Assembly: GCA_964016885.1 (NCBI GenBank)
Contig: OZ024743.1
Span: 127,410,001 to 127,474,000, forward strand
DNA: 64,000 nt
Direction of reading: 5' to 3'
Source: Eledone cirrhosa
Lineage: Eukaryota
Part shown: in pieces, positions 5,720 to 64,000 of the stretch
Numbering within the stretch: position 1 is the first letter of the stretch
Layout: each line of letters opens with the position of its first letter
Notes under the pieces: model-generated
Databases searched by the model: none
What the model was told of the DNA's origin: nothing
The model's input: only the letters and a program-made list of their open reading frames with translations
Made by a program: the position numbers and the translations under genes

Positions 5720-8700
5720 CCCACACACCACAACAGCCACCACCACACCACAACAGCCACCACCACAGCACTACAGTTACCACAACAGCCACCACAACAG
5801 CACTACAGTTACCACAACAGCACTACAGTTACCACAACAGCACTACAGTTACCACAACAGCACTACAGTTACCACAACAGCCACCACCACAGCACTACAG
5901 TTACCACAACAGCCACCACCACACCACAACAGCCACCACCAGACCACTACTGTCACCACCACCACACCACTACTGTCACCACCACCACACCACTACTGTC
6001 ACCACCACACCACAACAGCCACCACCACACCACTACTGTCAGCACCACCACACCACTACTGTCACCACCACACCACTACTGTCACCACCACCACACCACT
6101 ACTGTCACCACCACCACACCACTACTGTCACCACCACACCACTACTGTCACCACCACCACACCACTACTGTCACCACCACCACACCACTACTGTCACCAC
6201 CACACCACTACTGTCACCACCACCACACCACTACTGTCACCACCACCACACCACTACTGTCACCACCACACCACTACTGTCACCACCACCACACCACTAC
6301 TGTCACCACCACACCACTACTGTCACCACCACCACACCACTACTGTCACCACCACCACACCACTACTGTCACCACCACCACACCACTACTGTCACCACCA
6401 CCACACCACTACTGTCACCACCACACCACTACTGTCACCACCACCACACCACTACTGTCACCACCACCACACCACTACTGTCACCACCACCACACCACTA
6501 CTGTCACCACCACCACACCACTACTGTCACCACCACACCACTACTGTCACCACCACACCACTACTGTCACCACCACCACACCACTACTGTCACCACCACA
6601 CCACTACTGTCACCACCACACCACTACTGTCACCACCACACCACTACTGTCACCACCACCACACCACTACTGTCACCACCACACCACTACTGTCACCACC
6701 ACACCACTACTGTCACCACCACACCACTACTGTCACCACCACACCACTACTGTCACCACCACCACACCACTACTGTTACCACCACCACACCACTACTGTC
6801 ACCACCACACCACTACTGTCACCACCACCACACCACTACTGTCACCACCACACCACTACTGTCACCACCACCACACCACTACTGTCACCACCACACCACT
6901 ACTGTCACCACCACCACACCACTACTGTCACCACCACACCACTACTGTCACCACCACCACACCACTACTGTCACCACCACCACACCACTACTGTCACCAC
7001 CACCACACCACTACTGTCACCACCACACCACTACTGTCACCACCACCACACCACTAATGTCACCACCACACCACTACTGTCACCACCACACCACTACTGT
7101 CACCACCACCACACCACTACTGTCACCACCACACCACTACTGTCACCACCACCACACCACTACTGTCACCACCACACCACTACTGTCACCACCACCACAC
7201 CACTACTGTCACCACCACCACACCACTACTGTCACCACCACACCACTACTGTCACCACCACCACACCACTACTGTCACCACCACACCACTACTGTCACCA
7301 CCACCACACCACTACTGTCACCACCACCACACCACTACTGTCACCACCACCACACCACTACTGTCACCACCACACCACTACTGTCACCACCACACCACTA
7401 CTGTCACCACCACACCACTACTGTCACCACCACCACACCACTACTGTCACCACCACACCACTACTGTCACCACCACACCACTACTGTCACCACCACCACC
7501 ACACCACTACTGTCACCACCACACCACTACTGTCACCACCACACCACTACTGTCACCACCACACCACTACTGTCACCACCACACCACTACTGTCACCACC
7601 ACCACACAACTACTGTCACAACCACACCACTACTGTCACCACCACACCACTACTGTCACCACCACACCACTACTGTCACCACCACCACACCACTACTGTC
7701 ACCACCACCACACCACTACTGTCACCACCACCGCACCACTACTGTCACCACCCCACCACTACTGTCACCACCACCACACCACTACTGTCACCACCACACC
7801 ACTACTGTCACCACCACCACACCACTACTGTCACCACCACCACACCACTACTGTCACCACCACCACACCACTACTGTCACCACCACACCACTACTGTCAC
7901 CACCACACCACTACTGTCACCACCACCACACCACTACTGTCACCACCACCACACCACTACTGTCACCACCACCGCACCACTACTGTCACCACCCCACCAC
8001 TACTGTCACCACCACCACACCACTACTGTCACCACCACCACACCACTACTGTCACCACCACCACACCACTACTGTCACCACCACCACACCACTACTGTCA
8101 CCACCACACCACTACTGTCACGACCACACTACTACTGTCACCACCACACCACTACTGTCACCACCACCACACCACTACTGTCACCACCACCACACCACTA
8201 CTGTCACCACCACCACACCACTACTGTCACCACCACACCACTACTGTCACCACCACACCACTACTGTCACCACCACACCACTACTGTCACCACCACCACA
8301 CCACTACTGTCACCACCACCGCACCACTACTGTCACCACCACACCACTACTGTCACCACCACACCACTACTGTCACCACCACCACACCACTACTGTCACC
8401 ACCACCGCACCACTACTGTCACCACCCCACCACTACTGTCACCACCACCACACCACTACTGTCACCACCACCACACCACTACTGTCACCACCACCACACC
8501 ACTACTGTCACCACCACCACACCACTACTGTCACCACCACACCACTACTGTCACCACCACACCACTACTGTCACCAACACACCACTACTGTCACCACCAC
8601 CACACCACTACTGTCACCACCACACCACTACTGTCACCACCACCACACCACTACTGTCACCACCACCACACCACTACTGTCACCACCACCACACCACTAC

Positions 8701-11700
8701 TGTCACCACCACCACACCACTACTGTCACCACCACCACACCACTACTGTCACCACCACACCACTACTGTCACCACCACACCACTACTGTCACCACCACAC
8801 CACTACTGTCACCACCACCACACCACTACTGTCACCACCACACCACTACTGTCACCACCACCACACCACTACTGTCACCACCACCACACCACTACTGTCA
8901 CCACCACCACACCACTACTGTCACCACCACACCACTACTGTCACCACCACCACACCACTACTGTCACCACCACCACACCACTACTGTCACCACCACCACA
9001 CCACTACTGTCACCACCACACCACTACTGTCACCACCACCACACCACTACTGTCACCACCACCACACCACTACTGTCACCACCACCACACCACTACTGTC
9101 ACCACCACCACACCACTACTGTCACCACCACCACACCACTACTGTCACCACCACCACACCACTACTGTCACCACCACACCACTACTGTCACCACCACCAC
9201 ACCACTACTGTCACCACCACCACACCACTACTGTCACCACCACACCACTACTGTCACCACCACACCACTACTGTCACCACCACACCACTACTGTCACCAC
9301 CACCACACCACTACTGTCACCACCACACCACTACTGTCACCACCACCACACCACTACTGTCACCACCACACACACTACTGTCACCACCACACCACTACTG
9401 TCACCACCACCACACCACTACTGTCACCACCACACCACTACTGTCACCACCACCACACCACTACTGTCACCACCACACCACTACTGTCACCTCCACCACA
9501 CCACTACTGTCACCACCACACCACTACTGTCACCACCACCACACCACTACTGTCTCCACCACCACACCACTACTGTCACCACCACCACACCACTACTGTC
9601 ACCACCACCACACCACTACTGTCACCACCACACCACTACTGTCACCACCACCACACCACTACTGTCACCACCACCACACCACTACTGTCACCACCACACC
9701 ACTACTGTCACCACCACACCACTACTGTCACCACCACACCACTACTGTCACCACCACCACACCACTACTGTCACCACCACCACACCACTACTGTCACCAC
9801 CACACCACTACTGTCACCACCACACCACTACTGTCACCACCACACCACTACTGTCACCACCACCACACCACTACTGTCACCACCACACCACTACTGTCAC
9901 CACCACCACACCACTACTGTCACCACCACCACACCACTACTGTCACCACCACCACACCACTACTGTCACCACCACCACACCACTACTGTCACCACCACCA
10001 CACCACTACTGTCACCACCACCACACCACTACTGTCACCACCACACCACTACTGTCACCACCACACCACTACTGTCACCACCACCACACCACTACTGTCA
10101 CCACCACACCACTACTGTCACCTCCACCACACCACTACTGTCACCACCACCACACCACTACTGTCACCACCACCACACCACTACTGTCACCACCACCACA
10201 CCACTACTGTCACCACCACACCACTACTGTCACCACCACCACACCACTACTGTCACCACCACCACACCACTACTGTCACCACCACACCACTACTGTCACC
10301 ACCACCCCACTACTGTCACCACCACCACACCACTACTGTCACCACCACCACACCACTACTGTCACCACCACCACACCACTACTGTCACCACCCCACCACT
10401 ACTGTCACCACCACCACACCACTACTGTCACCACCACCACACCACTACTGTCACCACCACACCACTACTGTCACCACCACCCCACTACTGTCACCACCAC
10501 CACACCACTACTGTCACCACCACCACACCACTACTGTCACCACCACACCACTACTGTCACCACCACCACACCACTACTGTCACCACCACACCACTACTGT
10601 CACCTCCACCACACCACTACTGTCACCACCACCACACCACTACTGTCACCACCACCACACCACTACTGTCACCACCACCACACCACTACTGTCACCACCA
10701 CCACACCACTACTGTCACCACCACACCACTACTGTCACCACCACCCCACTACTGTCACCACCACAACACCACTACTGTCACCACCACCCCACCACTACTG
10801 TCACCACCACCACACCACTACTGTCACCACCACCCCACCACTACTGTCACCACCACACCACTACTGTCACCACCACCACACCACTACTGTCACCACCACA
10901 CCACTACTGTCACCACCACCACACCACTACTGTCACCACCCCACCACTACTGTCACCACCACCACACCACTACTGTCACCACCACCACACCACTACTGTC
11001 ACCACCACCACACCACTACTGTCACCACCACCACACCACTACTGTCACCACCACCCCACCACTACTGTCACCACCACACCACTACTGTCACCACCACACC
11101 ACTACTGTCACCACCACCACACCACTACTGTCACCACCACCACACCACTACTGTCACCACCACCACACCACTGCTGTCACCACCACCACACCACTACTGT
11201 CACCACCACACCACTACTGTCACCACCACCACACCACTACTGTCACCACCACCACACCACTACTGTCACCACCACCACACCACTACTGTCACCACCACAC
11301 CACTACTGTCACCACCACCACACCACTACTGTCACCACCACACCACTACTGTCACCACCACCCCACCACTACTGTCACCACCACACCACTACTGTCACCA
11401 CCACCACACCACTACTGTCACCACCACCCCACCACTACTGTCACCACTACACCTCTACTGTCACCACCACCACACCACTACTGTCACCTCCACACCACTA
11501 CTGTCACCACCACACCACTACTGTCACCACCACCACACCACTACTGTCACCACCACCACACCACTACTGTCACCACCACACCACTACTGTCACCACCACA
11601 CCACTACTGTCACCACCACACCACTACTGTCACCACCACCACACCACTACTGTCACCACCACCACACCACTACTGTCACCACCACACCACTACTGTCACC

Positions 11701-12140
11701 ACCACACCACTACTGTCACCACCACACCACTACTGTCACCACCACCACACCACTACTGTCACCACCACACCACTACTGTCACCACCACACCACTACTGTC
11801 ACCACCACACCACTACTGTCACCTCCACACCACTACTGTCACCACCACACCACTACTGTCACCACCACCACACCACTACTGTCACCACCACACCACTACT
11901 GTCACCACCACACCACTACTGTCACCACCACCACACCACTACTGTCACCACCACACCACTACTGTCACCACCACACCACTACTGCCACCACCACACCACT
12001 ACTGTCACCACCACCACACCACTACTGTCACCTCCACCACACCACTACTGTCACCACCACCACTGTCACCTCCACCACACCACTACTGTCACCACCACAC
12101 CACTACTGTCACCACCACACCACTACTGCCACCACCACTT
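5720..12140. repeat. 6.4-kb minisatellite of interspersed 20-bp (ACCACTACTGTCACCACCAC) and 23-bp (+CAC) units
   Basis: Read directly. A diverged 20-mer (CACAACAGCACTACAGTTAC) at 5760-5930 grades into the main array. Confidence 0.97.
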
Positions 12141-38704: not shown

Positions 38705-38749
<45 letters not shown>

Positions 38750-38794
38750 AATATTAAAACAATGAAATTAAACACAAAACTGTTAATTCATAGT

Positions 38795-38944
38795 AAAACT
38801 CATTATTTTACGATCGTTTCTGGGGGGTAGTTCCCTGTATGTTCATTCAATTATTGATCTATGTAAAACATATTACAAAATATCATAATAAGAAAAAGGT
38901 ACATAAGTCTTCACTCCCCGCCGTCTTCAGAAATAATGAGTTTT
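38795..38944 (-). ncRNA. Type I hammerhead ribozyme with ~100-nt stem II domain
   Basis: aaaacucauuauuu-CUGAAGA-(~103 nt)-GAAAC-gauc-GUA-aaauaaugaguuuu; 14-bp perfect stem I and palindromic stem III ACGAUCGU. Confidence 0.75.
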
Positions 38945-40550
38945 GTTTATTGAAGAATACAAAAAAACATACATATGAATAAGTAAGGTTTTATAACCAG
39001 GTTGAAATTGACCAATGTTAAGAATGGAAAGGGGCAGTATAAATCCTTAAGGTTGGTGGTAGTAGATGAATAAATAGGCCATCAGTAGATAAGGTATCAA
39101 ATGTCTTTTAAGAAAAGAAATGAAAGTTGCTAGTGTAAATGAATATAGACATATTGTATATAAAAGTGTTGATGGTGAAAGAAGATTACGGTTGGAGGAA
39201 AAGGGGTACTGAGATTAGTGTGTTACATCAAGTAGAATGGAATAGAACAATCTTAAAAAGTTAGTTATTTCTTTGTTGTGAGGAATAATTTGTTCTAAAA
39301 ATATATAATATAAAAATATATATACACATGTACACTCACACATGTTTATATATAGGCATACATGTATGCATATACATACATATACACACACAGATATACA
39401 TATTCACACACACACCTATAATCACACATTTATTCACCTATATCATTTTCTATATTTGTTTAGTTGTATTTATAATATTTGAATGTCCTTCTAATTTTAT
39501 GGTTACATACTAAAATTAATTCTTGTCTTTTATTTAATAGAATGTCCTTCGATTTAGTAATTTCAAAAATTTCTTGGGAACATAGTCCGCACTCCCTTCT
39601 ATTGCCCTGATACGAAATAGCTCTCTTAAGAATCCTCCAAGTTAGGTTATATTTAATATTCTTCTTTTTACAATTATTAACTCCTTCTGCTAAAGAAGTG
39701 CTATTTGTTAATTTTGTGTTTCAGAAACTGTGGGTGTGTGCATAAAATCTCGATTTAAATGGATTAGAAGTGGGTCCTATATAGGATTGATTAGAGTCTT
39801 TAGTGGTGATTACACATTTATATACTATATTATTAATTAAGCAATTTCCATTTAAGGGGCAATTATCTTTTATTCTACAATTACAACTGTTTGCATATAG
39901 GGTTTCAGATGTCCTATCCATATTCTCAATAATAGTGCTAGTATTTGTGTTTACCTTTTTATTTGGGAGAGAAGGGTTTACGGTAGGGTGGTTGTAATCC
40001 GAATTGTTGCTAGTTGGTGAAATTATACTTGATATAGCGTTTATGGAATCATGGTTGTTTTGGACGCTATTAGTTAGATTGGGTATGTAAAACTTAGTCC
40101 CTATTAAGGATGAGGAAGATGGTAATTGGTTGTAGTCTGTTATATTGTGCTGGTGAGGTGAGTGAGCGGATCTATCAGGTGGGTATGCAGTAATATTCTG
40201 GTTACGCGTTGTAGTATTATCATAGTTATCTTGTGTGTGGTGTGCTATTGTGTGTGGTATAGATGGCGCCTTTTTACATTTATAGATGTTATATGCACTT
40301 ATTTTTGTTGTATATTGCTCGAGGTGGAGTAAGAAAATTTTACTGTATTTCTGTTTAGGATTTGATGGTATTTGTGGTTAGGTGGGAAAGACATTTGATA
40401 CCTTATCCACTGATGGCCTATTTATTCATCTACTACCACCAACCTTAAGGATTTATACTACCCCTTTCCATTCTTAACATTGGTCAATTTCAACCTGGTT
40501 ATAAAACCTTACTTATTCATATGTATGTTTTTTTGTATTCTTCAATAAAC

Positions 40551-40700
40551 AAAACTCATTATTTCTGAAGACAGCGAGTAGTGAAGACGTATGTATCTTT
40601 TTCTTACTATGATATTTTGTAATATGTTTTACATAGATCAATAATTGAATGAACATACAGGGAACTACCCCCCAGAAACGATCGTAAAATAATGAGTTTT
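40551..40700 (+). ncRNA. Type I hammerhead ribozyme (inverted copy of 38795-38944)
   Basis: CTGAAGA 40565-40571, GAAA 40675-40678, cleavage triplet GUA ending at 40686, stem I 40551-40564 / 40687-40700. Confidence 0.75.
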
Positions 40701-40886
40701 ACTATGAATTAACAGTTTTTTGTTTAATTTCATTGTTTTAATATTTCTATTTTGACTCTGTATCCAATTGAATTATATCGTTGATAACATTTTTGTATTT
40801 TAAACTCTGCTTCATGACATCTTCTACATACGGATTACATTGAGTTCTTTATATGGTTTAGACCCTACCATTGAGTGGTAGATTTA

Positions 40887-44559: not shown

Positions 44560-47500
44560 GTGTCAGGTTGCTCTCGAGTGCTACTGGTAACATGTAACCC
44601 AGTACTACCTGTCTTATGGTCGAGTCGTCGGAGACTAAACCGGCAACCTCACCAAGCTAGCTTGGTGAGGAGGGTGATATTTGGACACCCTGCGGGATGA
44701 AATACAAGACCCGACAAAGAGCAGAGGAACTCAGCAGAGTCAACAGCCATCCAAATAGTACTTTTTTTTTTTTTTTTTTTACCTGGGAGTGATGGGCCCC
44801 CTGTTGTCACAACACCTTTCTAGGAGTGAAACTCTGAAAAAAAACCTGCAGCTTTGGAAGCATCCGATGATGTTGACCAGTTCTTCTTTTCGGGTAGTGT
44901 TTTCGATGCTCAGAGAGTGGGATTGGTCGCATGCAAGGCCTTTCCCCACTTAAAAATCCTTCAAAGCACAGGCATCGCTTGTTCAGGATCTGTTACAAGT
45001 TTGTGTGGCTAGCCGTAGTCTAAAAGTGCAGCAAACTCTATGATGACAGATGATAACCTTGAAGTCAATGGCATAAGGGCTCTGGAACTTATTGTGAAGG
45101 GGTCTGGCCCAGCAGGTCTCCCATGGCACTGCAGCGTGGGCCCGGTCGTCATCCTACAACTGCAAGGAGGTTCAAACCTCTGAATATTGGATGTTGGAAT
45201 GTAAGAACTTTACTGGATTCCCAGTCCAGTAAAACTCGCCCTGAAAGAAGATCTGCTTTGGTGTCGAGGGAACTCGATCGCTATAGCATGGACATCGTTG
45301 CTCTTTCAGAAACGAGATTGGCAGGTGAGAGTCAATTCACAGAACAGAAGGGAGGATATACCTTCTATTGGAGTGGTTGAGCAGAGGATTGTAGGAAAGT
45401 GGCAGGGGTTGCATTTGCAGTCAGGAATGGAATCGTCTCAAAGCTGGAAAATCTTCCTTGTGGATTCAATGATCGGATAATGTCCATGAGGGTCCCTCTG
45501 ATTCAAAACCACTTTGTGACTCTGGTCAGTGTGTACGCTCCTACTATGTGTGCTAGTGATGATGAAAAACTAAGTTTCTACATGTCTTTGAGAGAGGTCA
45601 TCCATGGTATACCTTATGCAGACAAGATTGTCATCCTTGGTGATTTTAATGCACATGTTGGTAATGACTGGGAGGCTTGGAGTGTGATGGGCAAGCATGG
45701 AGTAGGTAAGTGCAATATCAATGGCCTACTTCTGTTGCAGATGTGCACTGAGATGGATCTTGTTGTTGGGAACACGTTCTTTCAGCAGAAAGACAAATAT
45801 AAGACAACTTGAATGCATCCAGGTTCCAAGAAGTGACACCTTATTGACTTCGTTTTAATGAGAAAACGTGATATCAGGAATGTCACGTTGGTTCGTGTAT
45901 TGCGAGGCATGGAATGTTGGACTGATCATCGTCTGGTGCGTGCCAAGTTTCAATTTGTTGTGAAGCCCAAAGTAAAGGGGAAGAAGATTGCACTTCCAAG
46001 ACAACTAAACGTGGCTCGTCTGAAAACAGAGAAATTCAGAGCTGAGCTGTCGAGGTCCCTTGAGTCCATGGAATGTGAAAACACTTGGCAATCATTGAAG
46101 AAAACCATTTATGATGTTAGTGCTGGAGTTTTGGGTCATACCAATAGAAAGCATAAAGACTGGTTCGATGAAAATGATCCAGTGATCCAGACCTTGCTTG
46201 AAGAGAAACAAAAAGTGCCATCATTGTTGTGTGAGACACATTCTGACAGGAGTGACTGGACCTTCAGGCAGATCAAGGCAAGTGTGCAACATCGATTGAG
46301 AGCAATGCAGGATACCTGGTGGAGCCAAAAGGCTGATGAAATCCAGAAAGCCTCAGATAGACATGATACAAAGCTCCTATACAGTCTGCTCAGGGAGGTG
46401 TATGGTCCGACCGGTTCACAAATATAACCACTTCGCTCCGGGGACGGCAAGTAATTGCTCAGAGATCCGAAGGAAATCCTGATCAGGTGGCATGACCATT
46501 TTGATGAGCTTTTCAACAGACCATCAGAAATTGATGATGAGTTCATCCGGTCGATTCCATCCAGACCTACAAAGTTGGCAATGGTTGATCCTCCTTCATT
46601 TGATGAGGTGGCGAAGGCCATTGCCAAATTAAACAGTGGCAAGTTACCTGGAATGGATGGACTGAGTGCCGAGATTTTCAAGTGTGCTGGTGATAACTTC
46701 TTAAACCACCTCACTGATCTCTTTGTGAATGTTTGGAATGAAGAAGATGTGCCACAGGACTGGAAAGATGTATTGATGGTGGTACTTTATAAAAGAAAGG
46801 AGCCAAAGATCACTGTGGCAACTACAGAGGTATTTCACTGCTATCTGTGGCTGGGAAGATCTTGTGCAGGATATTGTTAGACAGATTGATACAGCACATT
46901 GCTGTTGACGTACTTCCTGAGTCCCAATGTGGCTTTAGGAATGGCAGAGGCATTGTTGTCATGATCTTCTCAGCCAAACAACTTCAAGAGAAATGCATTG
47001 AGCAGCGCATGGACTTATACCAAGTTTTTGTCGATCTGACCAAGGCATTTGACACGATTCATCAGAAGGCTTTGTGGGTTATTTTGGAGAGAATGGGCTG
47101 TCCTGAAAAGTTTGTGAACATTCTGAAACTCTTCCACGATGATATGCAGGCATGGGTGAATGTTGGAGGTAAACTGTCTGAGCCAATCTTGGTTGAAAAT
47201 GGTGTCAAGCAGGGTGATATAACTGCACCAACTTTGTTTGCCTTGTATTTCGCGGTGGTGTTCTTAATGGCCTTCAAGGATTATCCACACGGTATCTATC
47301 TCAGATATTGCACTTCCGGCATGCTGTTTAACCTTAGGCGTCTCACTGCCAACACTAAGGTACTGAGTACCTTGATCAGAGAATTTTTATATGCAGATGA
47401 TTGTGATCTCTTTGCACACTCCCAGAGTGACATGCAACACCTTATGGATTCTTTTTCCAATGCGTGCAGTGCTTTGGGACTGACAATCAGTCTGAAGAAG

Positions 47501-48512
47501 ACTGTCATCATGTACCAACCTGCTCCGGATAAAGTTTTCAATGAACCTTCCATACACGTATACGGTCAAAAGCTGAAGGCTGTTGACACATTCGTGTATT
47601 TGGGGAGTACTCTGAGTGTGACCTGCTCTCTGGATGCAGGAGTTGGTCTACGTGTTGGTAAGGCAAGTGAGTCATTTGGAAGGCTCAACGACCGTCTTTG
47701 GTGCAGGCGAGGAATCACAATGAGGACCAAGGTGAGAGTGTATGCTGCATGTGTACTGTCAGCTTTGCTGTATGCATGTGAGACATGGGTTGCCTACAAA
47801 CGGCATATCCACAGACTTGAATGGTTTCACCAGCAGTGTCTCAGAAAGATGCTCGGTATCAAGTGGCAAATGCATGTGAGTGATGTTGAGGTCCTTGAGA
47901 GAAGTGAGTGTCGAAGCATTGACACCTCTGCAGAATGGAGGATGATTGAATACCAAAACAACTCTTATATGGCGAGCTTTGTGTGAGTAAGAGACCACTT
48001 CCCAAGCCAAAGCTCCGATTCAAGGATTGTGTAAAGGACTCATTGAAAAAAACTGGTTTGATGATGGCTGACTGGGAGATAGAAGCTCTTGAAAGAGAGA
48101 CTTGGCATGGAATGGTGAATGATGGAGTCCATAATTTTGAGGACAGACACATAGAGCATGAGAAGATCAAACGGGATGTGCGTAAGCAATGCCCTGGTGT
48201 ATCTCTCGAAACGATCAGTGTCTCCATTGAATTGAAGTGCCCTGAGTGTGGAAAAATTTGCTTGAGCAAATCTGGTCTCAGGAGCCACAGTCGCAGCCAT
48301 GTTCAAAGAGAACCAGTGAACTATGATCTCCACGGTGTTGTGAGGGTTCACAGGCAACCTGATGCAGGACCTCAAGCCAGGGAGATCCATAGTTGTCGTC
48401 AGTGTGTGAAGGAGTGCAAGTCTCTAGCAGGCTTGAAAAGCTATATCCGAGTGTCCCACATCTGAATCTGACAAGCGATTGCAATACTCTTGGCAGAGTT
48501 TGCAGCCATCAT
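44560..48512 (+). mobile_element. Full-length-like RTE/BovB-type LINE with 5' UTR, APE, RT and two C-terminal C2H2 fingers (pseudogenised)
   Basis: WNVRTL, ALSETRL, VYAPT, GDFNAHVG, WTDHRLV, PESQCGFR, FVDLTKAFD, GVKQG, LYADDC, CPECGKIC...HSRSH. Several stops and frameshifts. Confidence 0.92.
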
Positions 48513-48532
48513 ATATATATATATATATATAT

Positions 48533-49109
48533 AATTGAGATAAGCGGAGCAAGCAAGATTCAAACAATTTTTTAAAATAAATTAAAAAATATAATTTAAA
48601 TATTTACCTATTCCAATTGCTTTTACCGAACGGTTTCACTTCACAAAAGATTGGAGATCCCTAGGGACTTCCAATGGTAAAGTTTAGATCATCAGAAAGC
48701 ATTTTCCTTTCCTAGGACAAAAAGTCCCAGGAACAGCAAAATATATTGCCATCTGCCAGCTAGCACAGGATCGAATGGGGCCGAAAATTTGACCTATGCA
48801 TGAACCAGCCCATAGTAGAAGCGGAAGTAAACATAGACGTATTGTCTACCTGGCTACTAAAAATAGCAGCTAAATAGAACAACGGATTTGTTCTCTACAT
48901 AACGGAGAATATTAAAAGAAGTTAATATCCCCACAGGTACTAAGTACCCCTGGAAATATATAGGGTGTCTATGATACAGTGGTTGTTCCATGGTATTAAT
49001 TTGACATACCAGAACTATAAAATTGAGATAAGCGGACTAAGTAAGATTCAAACAATTTTTTAAAATAAATTAAAAAATATAATTTAAATATTTACCTATT
49101 CCAATTGCT
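48533..49109 (-). mobile_element. Non-coding hammerhead-containing element, 488-nt monomer plus 89-nt direct repeat (retrozyme-like)
   Basis: 48533-48621 is repeated at 49021-49109. The element abuts (TA)n. A second family member lies at 61597-61972. Confidence 0.75.
48618..48701 (-). ncRNA. Type I hammerhead ribozyme with ~50-nt stem II domain
   Basis: ugcuuu-CUGAUGA-(ucuaaac...auuggaagucccuagggaucuccaau...aagu)-GAAAC-cguucg-GUA-aaagca. Confidence 0.75.
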
Positions 49110-50015
49110 AGAAGGATACACAGCCGCTAAGAGAGAAGCTAGACAACAGGTGTACTTAGCATGCAGGGAGGCTGGGAGTAGGAGGTTTGCCAATGTTCTG
49201 CGATGGGAAGATCAGGGACGTGGGGTTTTCCACATTACAAAGCAGTGTGTCAGTGCAAATCAGGATGTTGTTGGAGATAAGTGTGTCTGGAATGATGCTG
49301 GTGTACTTAGTGCCACGAATGATCAGAAAAAGGAGGCCTGGAAATGTCATTATGTGAGACTGGTGAATGTGGAGTACAAATAGGAGAGAGAGAAATTACC
49401 AGCTTCCGGTACCTAGGTGATCAGATTAGCATGGGAGGAGGGTGTTCCAAGACCATAGTGTCTAGAATAAGGACGGGTTGGAAGAAGTTTAGGGAGCTGC
49501 TTTCTCTGTTGACAAAGAAGGGTTTCTCCCTGCATATGAAAGGCTGGTTATATGATGCCTGTGTGAGATGTGTGATGCTGTATGGTAGTGAGACATGGGC
49601 AGCAACTAAAGAGGATATGTGACGGCTGTTGAGAAATAAGGCAAGCATGCTCCGTTGGATTTGCAATGTCAATGTGCGTGAACGACCAAGCATAGATGAG
49701 TTGAGAGAGAAACTGGATATAAGAGGGATAAGTTGTGGTGTGCAGGAGAGAAGACTGAGATGGTATGGACATGTGATGCGCATGGAGGATGACTGCTGGG
49801 TAAAGAAGTGCCAAGAAATCACAGTAGAAGGAAGACGCAGTAGAGCACGACAACGAAAAACATGAGCGGAGGTAGTGATAGCAGACCTCTGATCACTGAA
49901 GCTCACGGCGGAGATGACGAAGGACCGTGACGAGTGGAGAGATGCTGTGCTGAATAGAACCCGTCCCACCCTTGCAAGCAGGGAAAAGCGGACATAAAAT
50001 GATAATGATGATGAT
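49110..50015 (+). mobile_element. Internally deleted RTE fragment (same family as 13100-16245)
   Basis: Matches the regions near 14290 and 16130. SFRYLGD, MLYGSETW, RLRWYGHV. Tail cccacccttgcaagcagggaaaagcggac. Confidence 0.85.
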
Positions 50016-50016
50016 G

Positions 50017-50060
<44 letters not shown>

Positions 50061-52916: not shown

Positions 52917-52990
52917 GTTTTTGGCAACCATTCACGGTGTGGCTCAATGACAAATTAATTAATTAAATAATCAACAGTCAGAGCAATATA

Positions 52991-53569
52991 TAAGAAAGTA
53001 AGTCCATAGAATCATTTGATAAAATATATACAGTATTTCTTCTCCCAATCAGCGTAATCAACCACATAAAAAATCATTTAAACGAGGCTATAAGTTTAAA
53101 ATGTACCTATGAAGAAATAATAGATAAATAAATGATCCACAGCCACAGAAGATTTACCTAGTATTTCTGATAGCTTGTAGAAATTGACTAGAGATATAGT
53201 TAACCATACATAATTAGGTACAAAATCAAAGTTAGAAGAAAAAATGTACATAAACATACCAAAATCATATCTCTACCCCCAGAGGTTTCATTCGCTTTTT
53301 GGAAATATCCGATCATGGTTAAATCAATGAGTTTCGAAATCATCAGGAGACAAACTCTATTGGACCAGGCTATCAGAAATACTAGGTAAATCTTCTGTAG
53401 CTGTGGATCGCAGATAAAAAGCTATCATTTATTTATCTATTATTTCTTCATAGGTACATTTTAAACTTATAGCCTCGTTTAAATGATTTTTTATGTGGTT
53501 GACTATGCTGATTGGGAGAAGAAATACTGTATATATTTTATCAAATGATTCTATGGACTTATTTTCTTA
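52991..53569 (-). mobile_element. Hammerhead-containing element with ~185-bp inverted repeats
   Basis: Inverted repeats 52991-53174 / 53369-53569 enclose an HHR. Confidence 0.7.
53268..53352 (-). ncRNA. Type I hammerhead ribozyme with ~50-nt stem II domain
   Basis: ugucuc-CUGAUGA-uuucg...cgaau-GAAAC-cucuggg-GUA-gagaua (run of five G in total). All three stems can form. Confidence 0.75.
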
Positions 53570-54946
53570 AATAGACAATTATTTATTTTTTGGTCTTTCA
53601 TTGATTATAATTTATTTCTATTTTTTTCTTTTATCATCATCATTATCATCGTCATCATCATTATTATAATCGTCATCATCATCATCGTCATCATTATTGT
53701 TATTATTATTAGTGGTTGTGATACTGGTGACAGTGCTGATGGCAGTGATGTTGGTGATGGTGACACTGGTGGGGGTGATTTTTGTAGAGGAGGTGGTGAT
53801 GAGGGCAATGTGGGTGGCAGCAATGGTGGTGGTGATGATAGGAATGAGAGTGATAAAAGTGATGGTAACAGTGGAGATGGTAGTGGTGGAGAAGATGGTG
53901 GTAGTTGTGGTTTTATACAAGGGTAGAGGAATCAGTAAATAAAATGATGGATTTGAGAAAAATTCTGCTATTGTTTGTTAGAAAGAGATGTTAAAATACT
54001 TCATTTTTGTATTTGTTTTGTTGCAAGATTCTTGGTGTGAAATAGTGTGTTGAATCAGATATTGTTGTATCCAGGGAGGAGCATGCGTCCGAGTTAAAAC
54101 ACATGCACCAGTTGAGTTTCAATTCAGTATAATTAATCCGGTAATTAATCTATCGGTCAGTTGGTTAATAAAAGTCCTTTTACGACAGCCTGTTTCACTT
54201 CTTCCTCAACACTTACACTATCTTTAATACCCCACCACCACCACTTCAAAAAACCTAGTTGGATTTTAATTCAGAATGCAGAGATTTGGAACAAATACTA
54301 TGAGATATTCTATCCAATGCTTTAATGAGTCTACCAATTTGCCATGGGAATAGAAAGCATAGCAATAATGGCACTGCTCCAGCTTTGCCACAGACCTTGA
54401 GCAGGAACTGGTAAAAAAAGAAAAAGTGTCTTTCATTAGAAATATGATAACTGAAGGGTTATTCATTATTAATTACCCCATCAAATGAATTCTGATATTG
54501 AAACTTCCCATATAAAAAGAAGTTAGTCCATTGCATATCTAATGCCAACCAAATTTATTAGTTCCATCTGTTCAGTTTAGCTTTTATATCTATGCCATAT
54601 TTACATATTTACCTTAATTTGTTGCTAAATAATTTATTATTGAAATTATACTCCATAACTTACCTGTTTCTTAGCCAGGTGTTTATTGTCAGAGCTGAAA
54701 TGAAACCTTGTGCAATTTGAGATATTAATAGAAACACTGCTCTCCTTGCTGTGGTTTTGTCAGAGTATATATATATATATATATAGTTTAGGTAATTCAG
54801 TGAATTACTGGTGGTGGTACCAAAACAAGCACTCAATGCACAGGCAGAGTGTATATGTATTAGAGCCAATCCTCTGTCAAATGCACATAATAGGTCAAAA
54901 CACAATAAAAATCTAATACATTTAAACAAAACTTCTTCACTTTTTC

Positions 54947-58549: not shown

Positions 58550-59100
58550 GGGCATATACCTCTGTGGGGGGGGGGGGCTAGGCTAGTCATGCCCTTTTCA
58601 GGACAGCTCATCCTGCATTGGGTCCCACCTGATAATCAGCTCTCACCCGTGGCCCCAAGAAGCTGTAGCATGTGACAGCAGCCACACCCTGGTAAACCAC
58701 CTTGGCTGGTGGGCTGAACCAGGTTGAGGGTAGCCGGACGGGTTTGAAACCCCCCGGTGAGTCAGATAGGGGATGCCTGCCCCTGCATGCGAAGACTGGA
58801 CCCGGCAGAGTGAGTGGAGGAGGACAACATCATCCCAACAGTCACGAAGGCGGCGACAGCAAGGGTGTGGAGCGCTAGGGCATGGCAAGGCACTACATAC
58901 GTCGAGGCCATCCACTGCAGCCAAGGAAGTCTCTGGTCGTGACAGTCCTCCGTACAACCGGATTCTGGCTTCTGCGGCCGAGTGAGTGGGACCGTCACTG
59001 TGCACTGGGCCTCCCACTATAAACCTTTCCCGCACTAGCGTGCACTCCCAAAGCCCTACGGCGATGGGTTACAGGTGGAGGTAACCTCTGGGAGTTGCCA
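58550..59100 (+). mobile_element. GC-rich segment resembling an RTE/BovB 5' UTR
   Basis: Abrupt GC rise. The motif gtggccccaagaagctgtagcatgtgacagcagccacacc resembles RTE/BovB 5' regions (from memory). No convincing ORF. Confidence 0.45.
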
Positions 59101-60842
59101 GTCTCAAAACAACACTATTCACAAGAACATCCCACTACTAAAACAAAACCCAAGAATGAAAAAAGCCCTTGAAACACACAAAATAATCAAAAGTAAAAGA
59201 CAACCAAAATCACTGAAAACATTGCACACCAATGCCAAATTACCTACCACAAACCCACAACCAAGTATCAAAAAATGTGGTCGCTCTAATTGTGGAACCT
59301 GCACTCACCTCATTGAACGCAACACGTATACATTTAAATCAGGACAAAATTTTACTGTAAAAAATCACTTCACTTGCTCATCAAAAAATCTAATTTATGC
59401 CATTAAATGTAAAGGATGCAATGAAGATTATATAGGACAAACTAAACTCACACTCAGAAACAGAATGACAGTTCATCGCCAACAATTACGAGATCCAACC
59501 ACGAGACAGATACCACTAAGTGCTTATCTAGACATTTGCGCAAGTAATAAGACACCCAAATTCCAAGTCTTCCCATTTTACCTTTGCGCTAACAATATAA
59601 CAGAACAAATACGAATAAATAAGGAAAATATGTTTATTTTGTGTGTTTCAAGGGCTTTTTTCATTCTTGGGTTTTGTTTTAGTAGTGGGATGTTCTTGTG
59701 AATAGTGTTGTAAGCTTCCGCATTTCTTGGGTTGTGTGTTGAGATATATGATAGAATATTGGACGTGCCTTGAATTTGTTTCTGTTTCCGTAATTCATCA
59801 ATACGAATAAATAAGGAAAATATGTTTATTCAAAAATATAGACCAGCATTAAATATGGTTTAATATACATTATGTCAACACCATAATATGACATACACAC
59901 ACACACATAACACCTTCTACTTTAGAAAATAAAAACCCGAACTAAATAAACCTTAACATACGTTTGCACTGACAATACAACAGAACAAATACGAATAAGT
60001 AAGGAAAATATGTTCATTCAAAAATATTCCTACTAAAGGAATCATTTTCCTACACACACACACACACACACACACACAATATATATATATATATATTCTC
60101 TTCATCTTAACATGCTAACCATACTCCCACACACATAACACCCATACACACACATAACAACCCCCACACCGACAATTCCCTCCCCCATTTCTACTAATAG
60201 AACCACTTTCCTACACACATATATACACACACACAAAATATATATTCTCTCCATCTTAACATACTCGCACACACACACATAACACCCATATACACACACA
60301 CAACTCCCTCCCCCATTTCTACTAATAGAATCATCTTCCAATACACACACACACACAAGCACACAAATAAACATACATATCTTTACTTCAATAGAAAATC
60401 TGAACTCTGACACCCCAGCGAACTAACCATATTCACTGAACCAGAACAATTCTCCCAATCCCATTTCTCTTGACCACTATCTTTCCCTTGTCATAACATT
60501 CTCTATAAAGGCTACAGAATAGTTTTCCAAATAAGGGTGCAAAAATGTAATGAAAACTTGTTCACGTGACAGCCAAATTTCATTTATAACCAATCAAATC
60601 ACGTTTATTAAAAAAAAGCCTTCGTGAGCCACCTTTTTTTTAAGTAAAGAAATTCAAACACACACACACACAACACACACACACGCACACATACAAGCAC
60701 ACAAATAAACATACATATCTTTACTGTCTTTATTAAATAGAAAATCTGAATTCTGACACCCCAGCGAACTAACAATATTCACTGAACCAGAACTATTCTC
60801 CCATCCCTTTCTCTTGACCATTATCTTTCACTTATCATAGAG

Positions 60843-61467: not shown

Positions 61468-61972
<505 letters not shown>

Positions 61973-62502
61973 TATATATATATAAAACGAAGGAAGTGTG
62001 GTAAGGAACCAGATGGACCATAACGCACCAGAGTACTCAATACTTAGGATAGTAGTGTGGGTAATAGGAAAATGTGTTACTCCGACGGGGAGGTCACAGA
62101 TTGGTGTGACGGAAGAGCTTTGATGGAAGAATAAAGATAAAGTGAAAGTTATATGGTGCATGTGTTCAATTGTTGAAATGACAATCCCCAAATATAACAA
62201 TATCGTTTTCAACACCCGATTTCAAATCAAGATCCTTGCTGAACAAATATATATATATATATATATATATAACATTGTTTTAAATTTATCATAGCTATGA
62301 TTGGCTTTCTATTTGGGACAGACACCATGGCTTGAGGTGCACTATCCCATTCTTTTCTTTGTTTTCTTTCTTCCTTCTGTTTGTGCTGTGTTTTGTCACA
62401 CACTCTTACCAGCAGAGGGATTTGTTTTTCTGTTGCACGATCCAGCTTGTCAGAGCTAGTGAAAATATATGCTATTTTCAAAAATATACACTTGCTCTGA
62501 CA

Positions 62503-62583
62503 GTTTGGCAGGTGAACAGTGAGCTGTACTGATGAAGGGTGTTACCCAGAAACATTAGTGTCTGCAGTTCTGTTCGCATGCCA
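62503..62583 (+). ncRNA. Type I hammerhead ribozyme, copy 1
   Basis: uggcag-gugaacag-ug-agcugua-CUGAUGA-a-gggu-guu-accc-a-GAAAC-auuagu-GUC-ugcaguu-cuguucgc-a-ugcca. Confidence 0.85.
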
Positions 62584-62939
62584 ACACAAGAGCAAGAATG
62601 AAGTGTTCATTCTACTGACATGGCTATAAAATTGAGGCTTGTTTGCATACTTGCAAACGAATCGAATATTATTATTAATATTCGCAAAACTCATTACATT
62701 TATTGTAATCAGCCATGTAGAGCGAAATTTTCTTTTTTATTTGAATTTGGTAAAGCCGGCCATCTATCACTCATATACAGGAAACTCACTGGCCAGTTTG
62801 CTGATATGCAAATGTGGCTGATCAGTGGATCTGCTAATATGCAGATCTGACTGATCAGCCAGTCTGCTAATATGCAAATCAGGCTGATCAGTCACTGTGT
62901 ATTTTTGAAAATAGCATATATTTTCACTAGCTCTGACAG

Positions 62940-63019
62940 TTTGGCAGGTGAACAGTGAGCTGTACTGATGAAGGGTGATATCCAGAAACATTAGTGTCTG
63001 CAGTTCTGTTCGCATGCCA
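62940..63019 (+). ncRNA. Type I hammerhead ribozyme, copy 2
   Basis: Same fold; stem II is gggu-gau-aucc, with a G-U pair retained. Confidence 0.85.
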
Positions 63020-63239
63020 ACACAAGAGCAAGAATGAAGTGTTCATTCTACTGACATGGCTATAAAATTGAGGCTTGTTTGCATAATTGCAAACTAATCG
63101 AATGTTATTATTAATATTCTTGACTTTGCCTTTCATCCTTACGGAGTCGATAAAATAAAGTACCAGTAATGAACTGGGTAATTGCTGGCCTTGTGCCTAA
63201 AGTAGAAACAATTATTAATATTCAAAAAACTCAGATTAC

Positions 63240-63276
<37 letters not shown>

Positions 63277-63278
63277 GT

Positions 63279-63400
63279 GAAGGCGTGTGGCTGAGTGGTT
63301 AGAGAATTGGATTCACAATCTTGAGGTTGTGAGCTCGATTCCTGGAGCAGGCGATGCGTTATGTCCTTGAGCAAGACACTTTATTTCACGTTGCCCCTTC
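63279..63400 (+). mobile_element. tRNA-derived CORE-like SINE head (family B relative)
   Basis: ggcgtgtggctgagtggttagag A box, gagctcgattcc B box, then tgtccttgagcaagacacttta. Confidence 0.75.
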
Positions 63401-63904
63401 TACCTGGAGTTGCGACCGATAGTACTAGCAACTGGAATGACCAACGGAAACATTGTTTCCTCAGTCCGATTTGACGAAAGTCGATCGATCAAAAAATATA
63501 TGTATATATATAAATGAAAAAAAATTAAAAAAAATTTTTATTTTATTTTCACAAGAGCAAGAATGAGGGGCTCATTCTACTGACATGGCTTTAAAAATGA
63601 GGCTTGTTTGCATAATTGCAAACGAATCGAATGTTATTATTAATATTCGCAAAACTCATTACATTTATTGTATTTAGCCATGTAGAGCAAAATTTTTTTT
63701 TTTTTTTAATGTGGCAAAGCCGGCCATTGATCGCTCGTTTGCAAGAAACTGACTGGCCAGTCTGCTGATATGCAAATTTGGCTGATCAATGGATCTGCTA
63801 ATATATAGATCTGACTGATCAGCCAGTCTGCTAATATGCAAATCAGGCTGATCAGTCACTGTATATTTTAGAAAATATCATATATTTTCTCTAGCTCTGA
63901 CAGT

Positions 63905-63983
63905 TTGGCAAGTGAACAGTGAGCTGTACTGATGAAGGGTAATACCCAGAAACATTAGTATCTGCAGTTCTGTTTACATGCCA
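63905..63983 (+). ncRNA. Type I hammerhead ribozyme, copy 3 (AUC cleavage triplet, weakened stem III)
   Basis: Stem II gggu-aau-accc. Distal stem I gugaacag/cuguuuac still pairs. Confidence 0.75.
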
Positions 63984-64000
63984 ACACAAGAGCAAGAATG

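What the first reader, a model, noticed from the sequence alone, without database searches (positions are those of the whole stretch)
48533..49109. 488-nt hammerhead monomer whose boundary falls 2 nt from the predicted cleavage site
Seen: the first 89 nt recur 488 nt later. On the ribozyme (minus) strand the element begins at 49109, two nt inside the position equivalent to the GUA cleavage site (48624/48623 + 488). It runs one full monomer through an intact HHR and ends ~90 nt later in (TA)n. Inference: this fits reverse transcription of a ribozyme-processed multimeric or circular RNA primed at a TA microsatellite. Caveat: the boundary also coincides with the start of an RTE fragment, so it may be an insertion or deletion breakpoint.
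Basis: partly seen in the sequence, partly recalled or inferred. Interest (0 to 1): 0.7.

Follow-up and report, generated by a model that had tools for sequence, protein, structure and literature searches.

The report
Hammerhead-ribozyme retroelement copy beside TA repeat
This is one copy of a multi-copy, non-coding jumping element that carries a self-cutting RNA motif, a kind already known in animals; its start lies two letters from the predicted cut, but the other copies examined start elsewhere, so that coincidence is probably not the family's rule.

Summary
Observation confirmed: 89 nt recur 488 nt apart (86/89 identical), a type I hammerhead core lies on the minus strand (cut 48624|48623), and homology starts 2 nt inside the cut-equivalent, exactly where a 5'-truncated LINE begins head-to-head. 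The element is a multi-copy, ORF-less, 36% GC, strongly self-paired unit (z -6.7) with head-to-tail junctions in 4 of 4 DNA runs: an animal non-LTR retrozyme, probably carried by a Penelope-like RT. The reproducible end is the 3' end: both window copies enter (TA)n 88-96 nt after the cut. The 5' claim does not generalise: 0 of 10 other candidate ends lie within 3 nt of the cut (only 24 of 319 loose-end rows were visible), and raw-read depth drops only about 7% across it. A circle has no 5' end, so a real stop at the cut would favour a linear, partly cleaved multimer. The ribozyme is atypical (U.U instead of G10.1-C11.1, 51-nt stem II) and untested; no RNA run was available. New member of a known kind; moderate interest as a handle on how retrozymes are mobilised.

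The parts
48533..49109 (-). Copy A of the hammerhead retroelement: 1.18 units (89-nt tail, rest of the 488-nt unit with the ribozyme, 89-nt tail)
48533..49020 (-). One 488-nt unit; 36% GC, longest ATG ORF 44 aa sense / 30 aa antisense, MFE z -6.7 on the ribozyme strand versus -2.9 on the other
48618..48701 (-). Type I hammerhead motif: 6-bp stem I, CUGAUGA 48695-48689, 51-nt stem II region closed by U.U, GAAA 48637-48634, near-palindromic 3-bp helix III, GUA cut 48624|48623
48533..48623 (-). 3' tail after the cut, folding as an AU-rich hairpin (z about -2.9; 2 of 300 shuffles as stable); inferred protein-binding / RT start region
49021..49109 (-). Upstream copy of the tail; starts 2 nt after the cut-equivalent; 3 clustered differences, two of them U.G to U-A in the hairpin
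48511..48533 (.). (TA)n target at the 3' end, shared with the 3' end of the LINE to the left
49110..50016 (+). 5'-truncated LINE fragment (RTE-type by recalled motifs) with an internal deletion at 49399/49400, joined head-to-head to copy A, 3' end in (TA)n 50017-50056
45063..48509 (+). Degenerate LINE of another family (endonuclease-like ORFs, RVT_1, C2H2 fingers) ending in the same TA tract
61597..61975 (-). Copy B, 88% identical; same 3' end in (TA)n; 5' end equivalent to 48912, joined to a TA tract through ATAT microhomology; hammerhead core 61758-61689

Best explanation
A non-autonomous, non-coding retroelement family (animal non-LTR retrozyme) with a 488-nt head-to-tail unit and one type I hammerhead per unit. 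Shown: unit, tandem junction, multi-copy status, hammerhead motif, shared 3' end in (TA)n, scattered 5' ends. Inferred: multimeric transcripts are bound by a Penelope-like RT/GIY-YIG protein, which nicks a TA tract and starts reverse transcription inside the RNA 88-96 nt after a hammerhead cut site that is still uncut, helped by a few U-A pairs between RNA and target; the RT usually stops early and the cDNA is joined by microhomology (copy B). Copy A went one full unit further and ended 2 nt short of the next cut site: either an occasional run-off from a linear RNA cleaved at the upstream ribozyme, or a coincidence at the junction with the LINE. The head-to-head LINE with (TA)n at its outer end may be the second primed strand of one insertion or a separate insertion into the same tract.
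For: Repeat and motif. 1096 and 966 contigs, 929 and 874 reads laid on one unit; joints going back 487-488 nt in 4 of 4 runs (3 samples, 2 studies). Both window copies end at +88 (CTCA) then (TA)n, although the unit continues without TA in tandem. 36% GC, no ORF over 44 aa, z -6.7 on the ribozyme strand. Helix III self-dimerises, -11.2 kcal/mol. A GIY-YIG remnant with a CX4CxxC finger lies in the window; such fingers are proposed to target (TA)n (PMC8557442, passages). An anole Penelope-like RT nicks AT-rich DNA on both strands and starts internally 111-118 nt into an ORF whose hammerhead cut is at 26 nt, i.e. 85-92 nt after the cut by my arithmetic (PMC11167929). Two opposite-strand joints in contigs fit inverted neighbours typical of these elements.
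Against: No RNA, cleavage or mobilising protein was observed. No autonomous element sharing this unit was found in the window. The fixed 3' end rests on 2 of 2 window copies; one search lists 7 other places with 3'-side loose ends (48593, 48829, 48833, 48857, 48859, 48978, 48982). The second hammerhead family in the window ends about 139 nt after its cut, so the match to the anole distance may be chance. Structure conservation over the whole unit was not significant (P 0.07 for 40 listed variants, 0.14 for 44 A/B differences). Two complete ribozymes in tandem were not shown for this family.
Confidence: 0.68

Rival explanations
1. The 49109 boundary is unrelated to the ribozyme: a random truncation, a target deletion made when the LINE inserted, or a later deletion.
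For: The LINE starts at the very next base and has itself lost about 1.1 kb internally; no TA remains between the two; 0 of 10 other candidate ends, and 0 of 2 5' ends in the second family (62489, 63550), lie at a cut; the finding was flagged because of the coincidence.
Against: A random end falls within 2 nt of the cut about 1% of the time, 2% for two copies. No clear microhomology with the one close LINE copy compared.
Confidence: 0.5
2. Copy A is a true run-off product: the template was a linear multimer cut at the upstream hammerhead and uncut at the next, with 2 nt lost on joining. This holds for a minority of copies.
For: 1-2% chance level. The three differences between its two tails cluster within 6 nt (P 0.0075), all lie in the upstream tail (the downstream one matches copy B), and two keep the hairpin, which suits two different units on a linear RNA. 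Ribozyme-defined, microhomology-variable 5' junctions are known for R2 (PMC3774820, abstract).
Against: Single, pre-selected case. Three differences in 89 nt is also compatible in number with mutation after insertion. In the anole element unprocessed RNA was the main substrate and no reads ended at the cut (PMC11167929).
Confidence: 0.4
3. One reading: ribozyme cleavage generally sets the 5' end of this family's copies.
For: Copy A. Summed contig depth falls from 26226 to 8430 (X1) and 19461 to 5757 (X2) across the cut.
Against: That depth is inflated by adjacent AT-rich bins (57,000-93,000) and swings several-fold elsewhere; raw reads fall only 98.9 to 92.0 (X5) and 81.8 to 75.8 (X6); no row at 48621-48624 among 24 of 319 loose-end rows or 10 of 12 begin/end rows shown; copy B.
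Confidence: 0.1
4. The template was a 488-nt circle and the RT went round 1.18 times (the published retrozyme model).
For: Greater-than-unit length; strong self-pairing; circles are shown for coral, mussel and axolotl retrozymes (PMC7229834).
Against: A circle has no 5' end, so it predicts no stop at the cut, and it predicts identical tails at insertion; the tails differ by a clustered triplet.
Confidence: 0.2
5. A SINE-like passenger of a LINE RT: a master copy already ends in (TA)n, transcripts end in (UA)n and prime at their physical 3' end, so the fixed 3' end is inherited rather than set by internal initiation.
For: LINE 3' ends in this window also sit in TA tracts; copy A could be such a master; the adjacent LINE shows the machinery was present.
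Against: No 3' sequence shared with a LINE; type I hammerheads and tandem units are Penelope-like traits (PMC4209133; 10.64898/2026.07.22.740005).
Confidence: 0.2
6. A partial-tandem terminal repeat (pLTR) of an autonomous Penelope-like element, not a separate non-autonomous family.
For: Same parts list: hammerhead, tail, TA target, 5' truncation (PMC8557442).
Against: The period is 488 nt with no ORF, and that junction recurs in 4 of 4 runs.
Confidence: 0.07

Closest known systems
Animal non-LTR retrozymes (Cervera and de la Pena 2020, PMC7229834; Li, Clavereau and Pollet 2026, 10.64898/2026.07.22.740005)
   Same: ORF-less tandem unit with one type I hammerhead, GC under 45%, strong self-pairing, dispersed near-monomer copies, Penelope-like remnants in the same genome.
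   Different: 488 nt is above the 170-400 nt RNAs shown in the first paper (within the 51-972 bp consensus range of the second); atypical stem II; circular RNA and cleavage not shown; in the text I read neither paper maps copy ends against the cut.
Penelope-like element pLTR and tail (Poseidon of Anolis, PMC11167929; PMC8557442; PMC4209133)
   Same: AT/TA target, 3' end a fixed short distance after the hammerhead, 5' truncation, head-to-head neighbour, short palindromic helix III.
   Different: No RT/GIY-YIG ORF; 488-nt period; the head-to-head neighbour is a LINE, not an inverted self-copy; G10.1-C11.1 absent.
R2 retrotransposons with HDV-like ribozyme (PMC3774820)
   Same: Precedent for a ribozyme cut defining the 5' end of inserts, with a few bases of junction variation.
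   Different: Other ribozyme class, autonomous, rDNA-specific; here the cut-defined end is at best one case.
Schistosome Sm-alpha SINE-like repeats and newt satellite 2 (via review PMC6765202, passages, and PMC7229834)
   Same: Short hammerhead-bearing tandem repeats in animal DNA.
   Different: No sequence comparison was possible; no tRNA gene was called in the window and a Pol III promoter was not tested.

Membership tests
Animal non-LTR retrozyme | Type I hammerhead core in each unit | tested here: met
   All core letters, 6-bp stem I and 3-bp helix III in copies A and B.
Animal non-LTR retrozyme | Head-to-tail short repeat unit | tested here: met
   488-nt period in copy A; joints going back 487-488 nt in 4 of 4 runs.
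Animal non-LTR retrozyme | Two consecutive units each with a complete hammerhead ('active' criterion of Li et al.) | tested here: inconclusive
   Copy A has one complete ribozyme; contigs and 150-nt reads do not span two; no genome held.
Animal non-LTR retrozyme | No ORF; GC below 45%; highly self-paired | tested here: met
   Longest ATG ORF 44 aa, GC 36%, 65% paired, z -6.7.
Animal non-LTR retrozyme | Self-cleavage and linear/circular monomer RNA | not testable with these tools
   Needs bench work; no RNA holder listed.
Canonical type I hammerhead | G10.1-C11.1 pair and 4-bp stem II with loop 1/loop 2 contacts | tested here: not met
   U.U at that position in both copies; 50-51-nt interrupted stem II; the core-adjacent register has one compensatory change in 2 sequences, not above shuffles (238/500); no Rfam hit.
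Autonomous Penelope-like element | RT plus GIY-YIG ORF between the repeats | tested here: not met
   No ORF in the unit.
Penelope-like mobilisation | 3' ends fixed at an internal site after the hammerhead, in AT/TA targets | tested here: inconclusive
   2 of 2 window copies agree; other 3'-side loose ends exist.
Penelope-like mobilisation | Homology to the pLTR of an autonomous partner | tested here: inconclusive
   None within the 64-kb window; genome not held.
Plant LTR retrozyme | Type III hammerhead in LTRs with PBS, PPT and 4-bp TSD | tested here: not met
   Open stem I (type I) topology; PBS and PPT were not searched.

The most novel reading that the evidence does not exclude
The copy ends record the life cycle of an animal retrozyme: a Penelope-like RT starts at a fixed internal site about 88 nt after an uncut hammerhead, uses linear multimers rather than circles, in some copies runs off a ribozyme-cut 5' end (in vivo evidence of cleavage by an atypical U.U-closed hammerhead), and at this locus the opposite nicked strand captured a LINE RNA in the same event.
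Probability: 0.25. Interest if true: 0.65.

Novelty: new member of a known kind. Interest (0 to 1): 0.38.

Why it matters
Which enzyme moves animal retrozymes, and whether circles or linear multimers are the template, is open: a 2020 review says the repeats show no motif that points to the helper element (PMC7761336, passage), and a 2026 preprint says the mechanism remains to be worked out. A family with mappable 3' and 5' ends relative to the ribozyme cut turns that into a counting exercise on one assembly. The single boundary coincidence does not carry that weight by itself.

Tried and rejected
Rfam at gathering and E 10: no hammerhead family. No whole genome is held, so genome-wide end mapping could not be done. 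Exact-pattern scans found nothing in viral (2 scans), metagenome (2) or prokaryote (1) contigs. No RNA holder listed; this says nothing on expression. Earlier-findings look-ups were empty. A covariance model from copies A and B found only those two (and the reverse strand of A at E 0.006) below E 0.05. Whole-unit structure conservation tests were not significant. The lowest-energy stem II register of copy A, which leaves 5 unpaired bases after the core, was set aside: copy B breaks 2 of its 7 pairs versus 1 of 5 broken (in A) for the core-adjacent register; with two sequences this is a preference only. The contig depth step at the cut was rejected as noisy. Four 5'-side loose-end places (48629, 48786, 48787, 48902) were dropped from the end count because their letters read, by eye, as variant element sequence. 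A hammerhead-like string in the inverted repeats at 38930/40565 was rejected: GAAG for GAAA and no stem I. Insertion into the middle of one LINE was rejected: the missing 5' part is not at the left flank. No tRNA gene. PMC5785218 on hammerhead variants is not held; supplements of PMC11167929 (RT start sites) were not opened and may bear on the distance comparison.

Full report
Observation. The stretch 48533-48621 recurs at 49021-49109, 488 nt apart, with 86 of 89 letters identical. On the minus strand there is a type I hammerhead motif: a 6-bp stem I, CUGAUGA at 48695-48689, GAAA at 48637-48634, a 3-bp helix III that is nearly palindromic and can pair with itself (-11.2 kcal/mol), and GUA at 48626-48624, giving a predicted cut at 48624|48623. 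A descriptor for this motif gave 4 hits in the window against 1 in 20 shuffled windows. A LINE fragment starts at 49110. Numbering of hammerhead positions and the label RTE for the LINEs are recalled; one search shows only RVT_1 for their ORFs.

The ribozyme is atypical. Both window copies have U.U where the G10.1-C11.1 pair is highly conserved (PMC4209133, parts 1-2 of 4 read), and the stem II region is 50-51 nt. Rfam reports no hammerhead family. The register next to the core shows one U-A/C-G compensatory change between the copies, which two sequences cannot make significant (238 of 500 shuffles). Position 7 varies between U and A in the family, as allowed. A second, unrelated hammerhead family in the window has the same N.N mismatch before stem II (A.A). 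Activity is untested.

The element is a family. The 488-nt unit is 36% GC, has no ATG ORF above 44 aa, and folds far better on the ribozyme strand (z -6.7, 0 of 100 shuffles) than on the other (z -2.9, 1 of 100). Copy B at 61597-61975 is 88% identical. Four of the 7 listed public runs were laid on one unit (two contig sets of one sample, two RAD read sets; 3 samples, 2 studies): 1096, 966, 929 and 874 records were laid, and joints going back 487-488 nt appear in all four, so the head-to-tail junction is family-wide in DNA. This does not prove arrays with two full ribozymes. No genome is held and no RNA holder was listed.

The 3' end is the reproducible one. Copies A and B both match the unit to +88 after the cut and pass into (TA)n between +88 and +96; inside the tandem the unit continues without a TA run, with a UAUA stretch that could pair with the target. 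The tail folds as an AU-rich hairpin (z about -3). In the anole Penelope-like element the RT nicks AT-rich DNA on both strands and starts inside the RNA 111-118 nt into an ORF whose hammerhead cut is at 26 nt (PMC11167929, parts 1-2 of 4 read; supplements not seen), which is 85-92 nt after the cut by my arithmetic. Against over-reading this: the second family in the window ends about 139 nt after its cut, and one search lists seven other places with 3'-side loose ends. A GIY-YIG remnant with a CX4CxxC finger is at 59039-59701; such fingers are proposed to target (TA)n, and inverted 5'-truncated neighbours are typical (PMC8557442, passages). No autonomous element sharing this unit is in the window.

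The 5' end does not generalise. Copy B starts at the equivalent of 48912, joined to a TA tract by ATAT microhomology. One search adds five 5'-side loose-end places with foreign letters (48637, 48746, 48768, 48901, 48909; four further places were dropped as variant element sequence) and two opposite-strand joints (48611/48959, 48646/48955; orientation not certain). That is 0 of 10 candidate ends within 3 nt of 48621-48624; the nearest are about 12 nt away. Raw-read depth across the cut falls about 7% in both RAD runs (98.9 to 92.0; 81.8 to 75.8). Limits: only 24 of 319 loose-end rows and 10 of 12 begin/end rows were shown, RAD samples few loci, some short matches at 80% likeness may be spurious, and the tool drops human-like reads, which may include TA junctions. 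Contig depth does fall threefold at the cut, but beside AT-rich bins of 57,000-93,000 and with several-fold swings elsewhere. The two 5' ends of the second family (73 nt before and 23 nt after its cut) also miss.

Copy A itself stays open. A random end lands within 2 nt of the cut about 1% of the time, but the case was selected for that. The neighbouring LINE starts at the next base, points the other way, ends in its own TA tract and has lost about 1.1 kb internally; its missing 5' part is not at the left flank. Twin priming at one break, two successive insertions, or a later deletion all fit; the second family shows a similar head-to-head layout between TA tracts. If the stop at the cut is real, the template was a linear RNA cut at one ribozyme and uncut at the next, since a circle has no 5' end (inference). 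The three tail differences cluster within 6 nt (P 0.0075), lie all in the upstream tail, and two keep the hairpin, which mildly favours two different units on a linear RNA. R2 offers precedent for ribozyme-set 5' ends with variable junctions (PMC3774820, abstract only); in the anole element uncut RNA was the main substrate.

Comparison and verdict. The element works like, and on the testable features is, an animal non-LTR retrozyme (PMC7229834: passages, abstract, sections 14 and 17; 10.64898/2026.07.22.740005: parts 1-3 of 5; PMC7761336 and PMC6765202: passages); cleavage and circular RNA remain untested. The host is an animal; my guess of a cephalopod is recalled from repeat content and comes from no call (an Octopus vulgaris repeat paper has no mention of hammerhead or ribozyme in its main text, PMC13282606, passages). 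Seven paper searches (listings) showed no study mapping retrozyme copy ends against the cut, but the library lacks most subscription journals.

Noticed in passing
window 62448-64000 (+): A second, unrelated hammerhead family with a 436-nt period: cores at 62529, 62965 and 63929, unit z -8.2. The array 62489-63119 holds two ribozymes, is interrupted by a short repeat with a 13-nt target duplication, resumes and ends in (TA)n near 63242; a 43-nt inverted piece sits head-to-head at its 5' end. It meets the two-ribozyme criterion that copy A does not.
   Followed up: partly
window 38747-40748: Penelope-like endonuclease-type ORF remnant (39721-40377, minus; recalled motifs, no Pfam hit) flanked by 362-nt inverted repeats at 97.5% identity, 3' end in (GA)n(TA)n.
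   Followed up: partly
window 59039-59862 (+): GIY-YIG endonuclease remnant with a CX4CxxC finger upstream (Pfam PF01541; atlas), rearranged near its end.
   Followed up: partly
window 48901-48912 equivalent: Several 5' ends cluster here (copy B, loose ends at 48901 and 48909, one contig ending at 48912), beside an AT-rich stretch that offers microhomology to TA targets.
   Followed up: partly
window 52987-53573: 208-nt inverted repeat pair (89%) enclosing a weak hammerhead-descriptor hit at 53346 (minus).
   Followed up: no
window 5913-12138: 6.2-kb satellite of 20-23-nt units, 91% matches, with extreme strand skew.
   Followed up: no
window 49399/49400: The LINE fragment beside copy A lacks about 1.1 kb of its RT region at a junction without microhomology.
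   Followed up: partly
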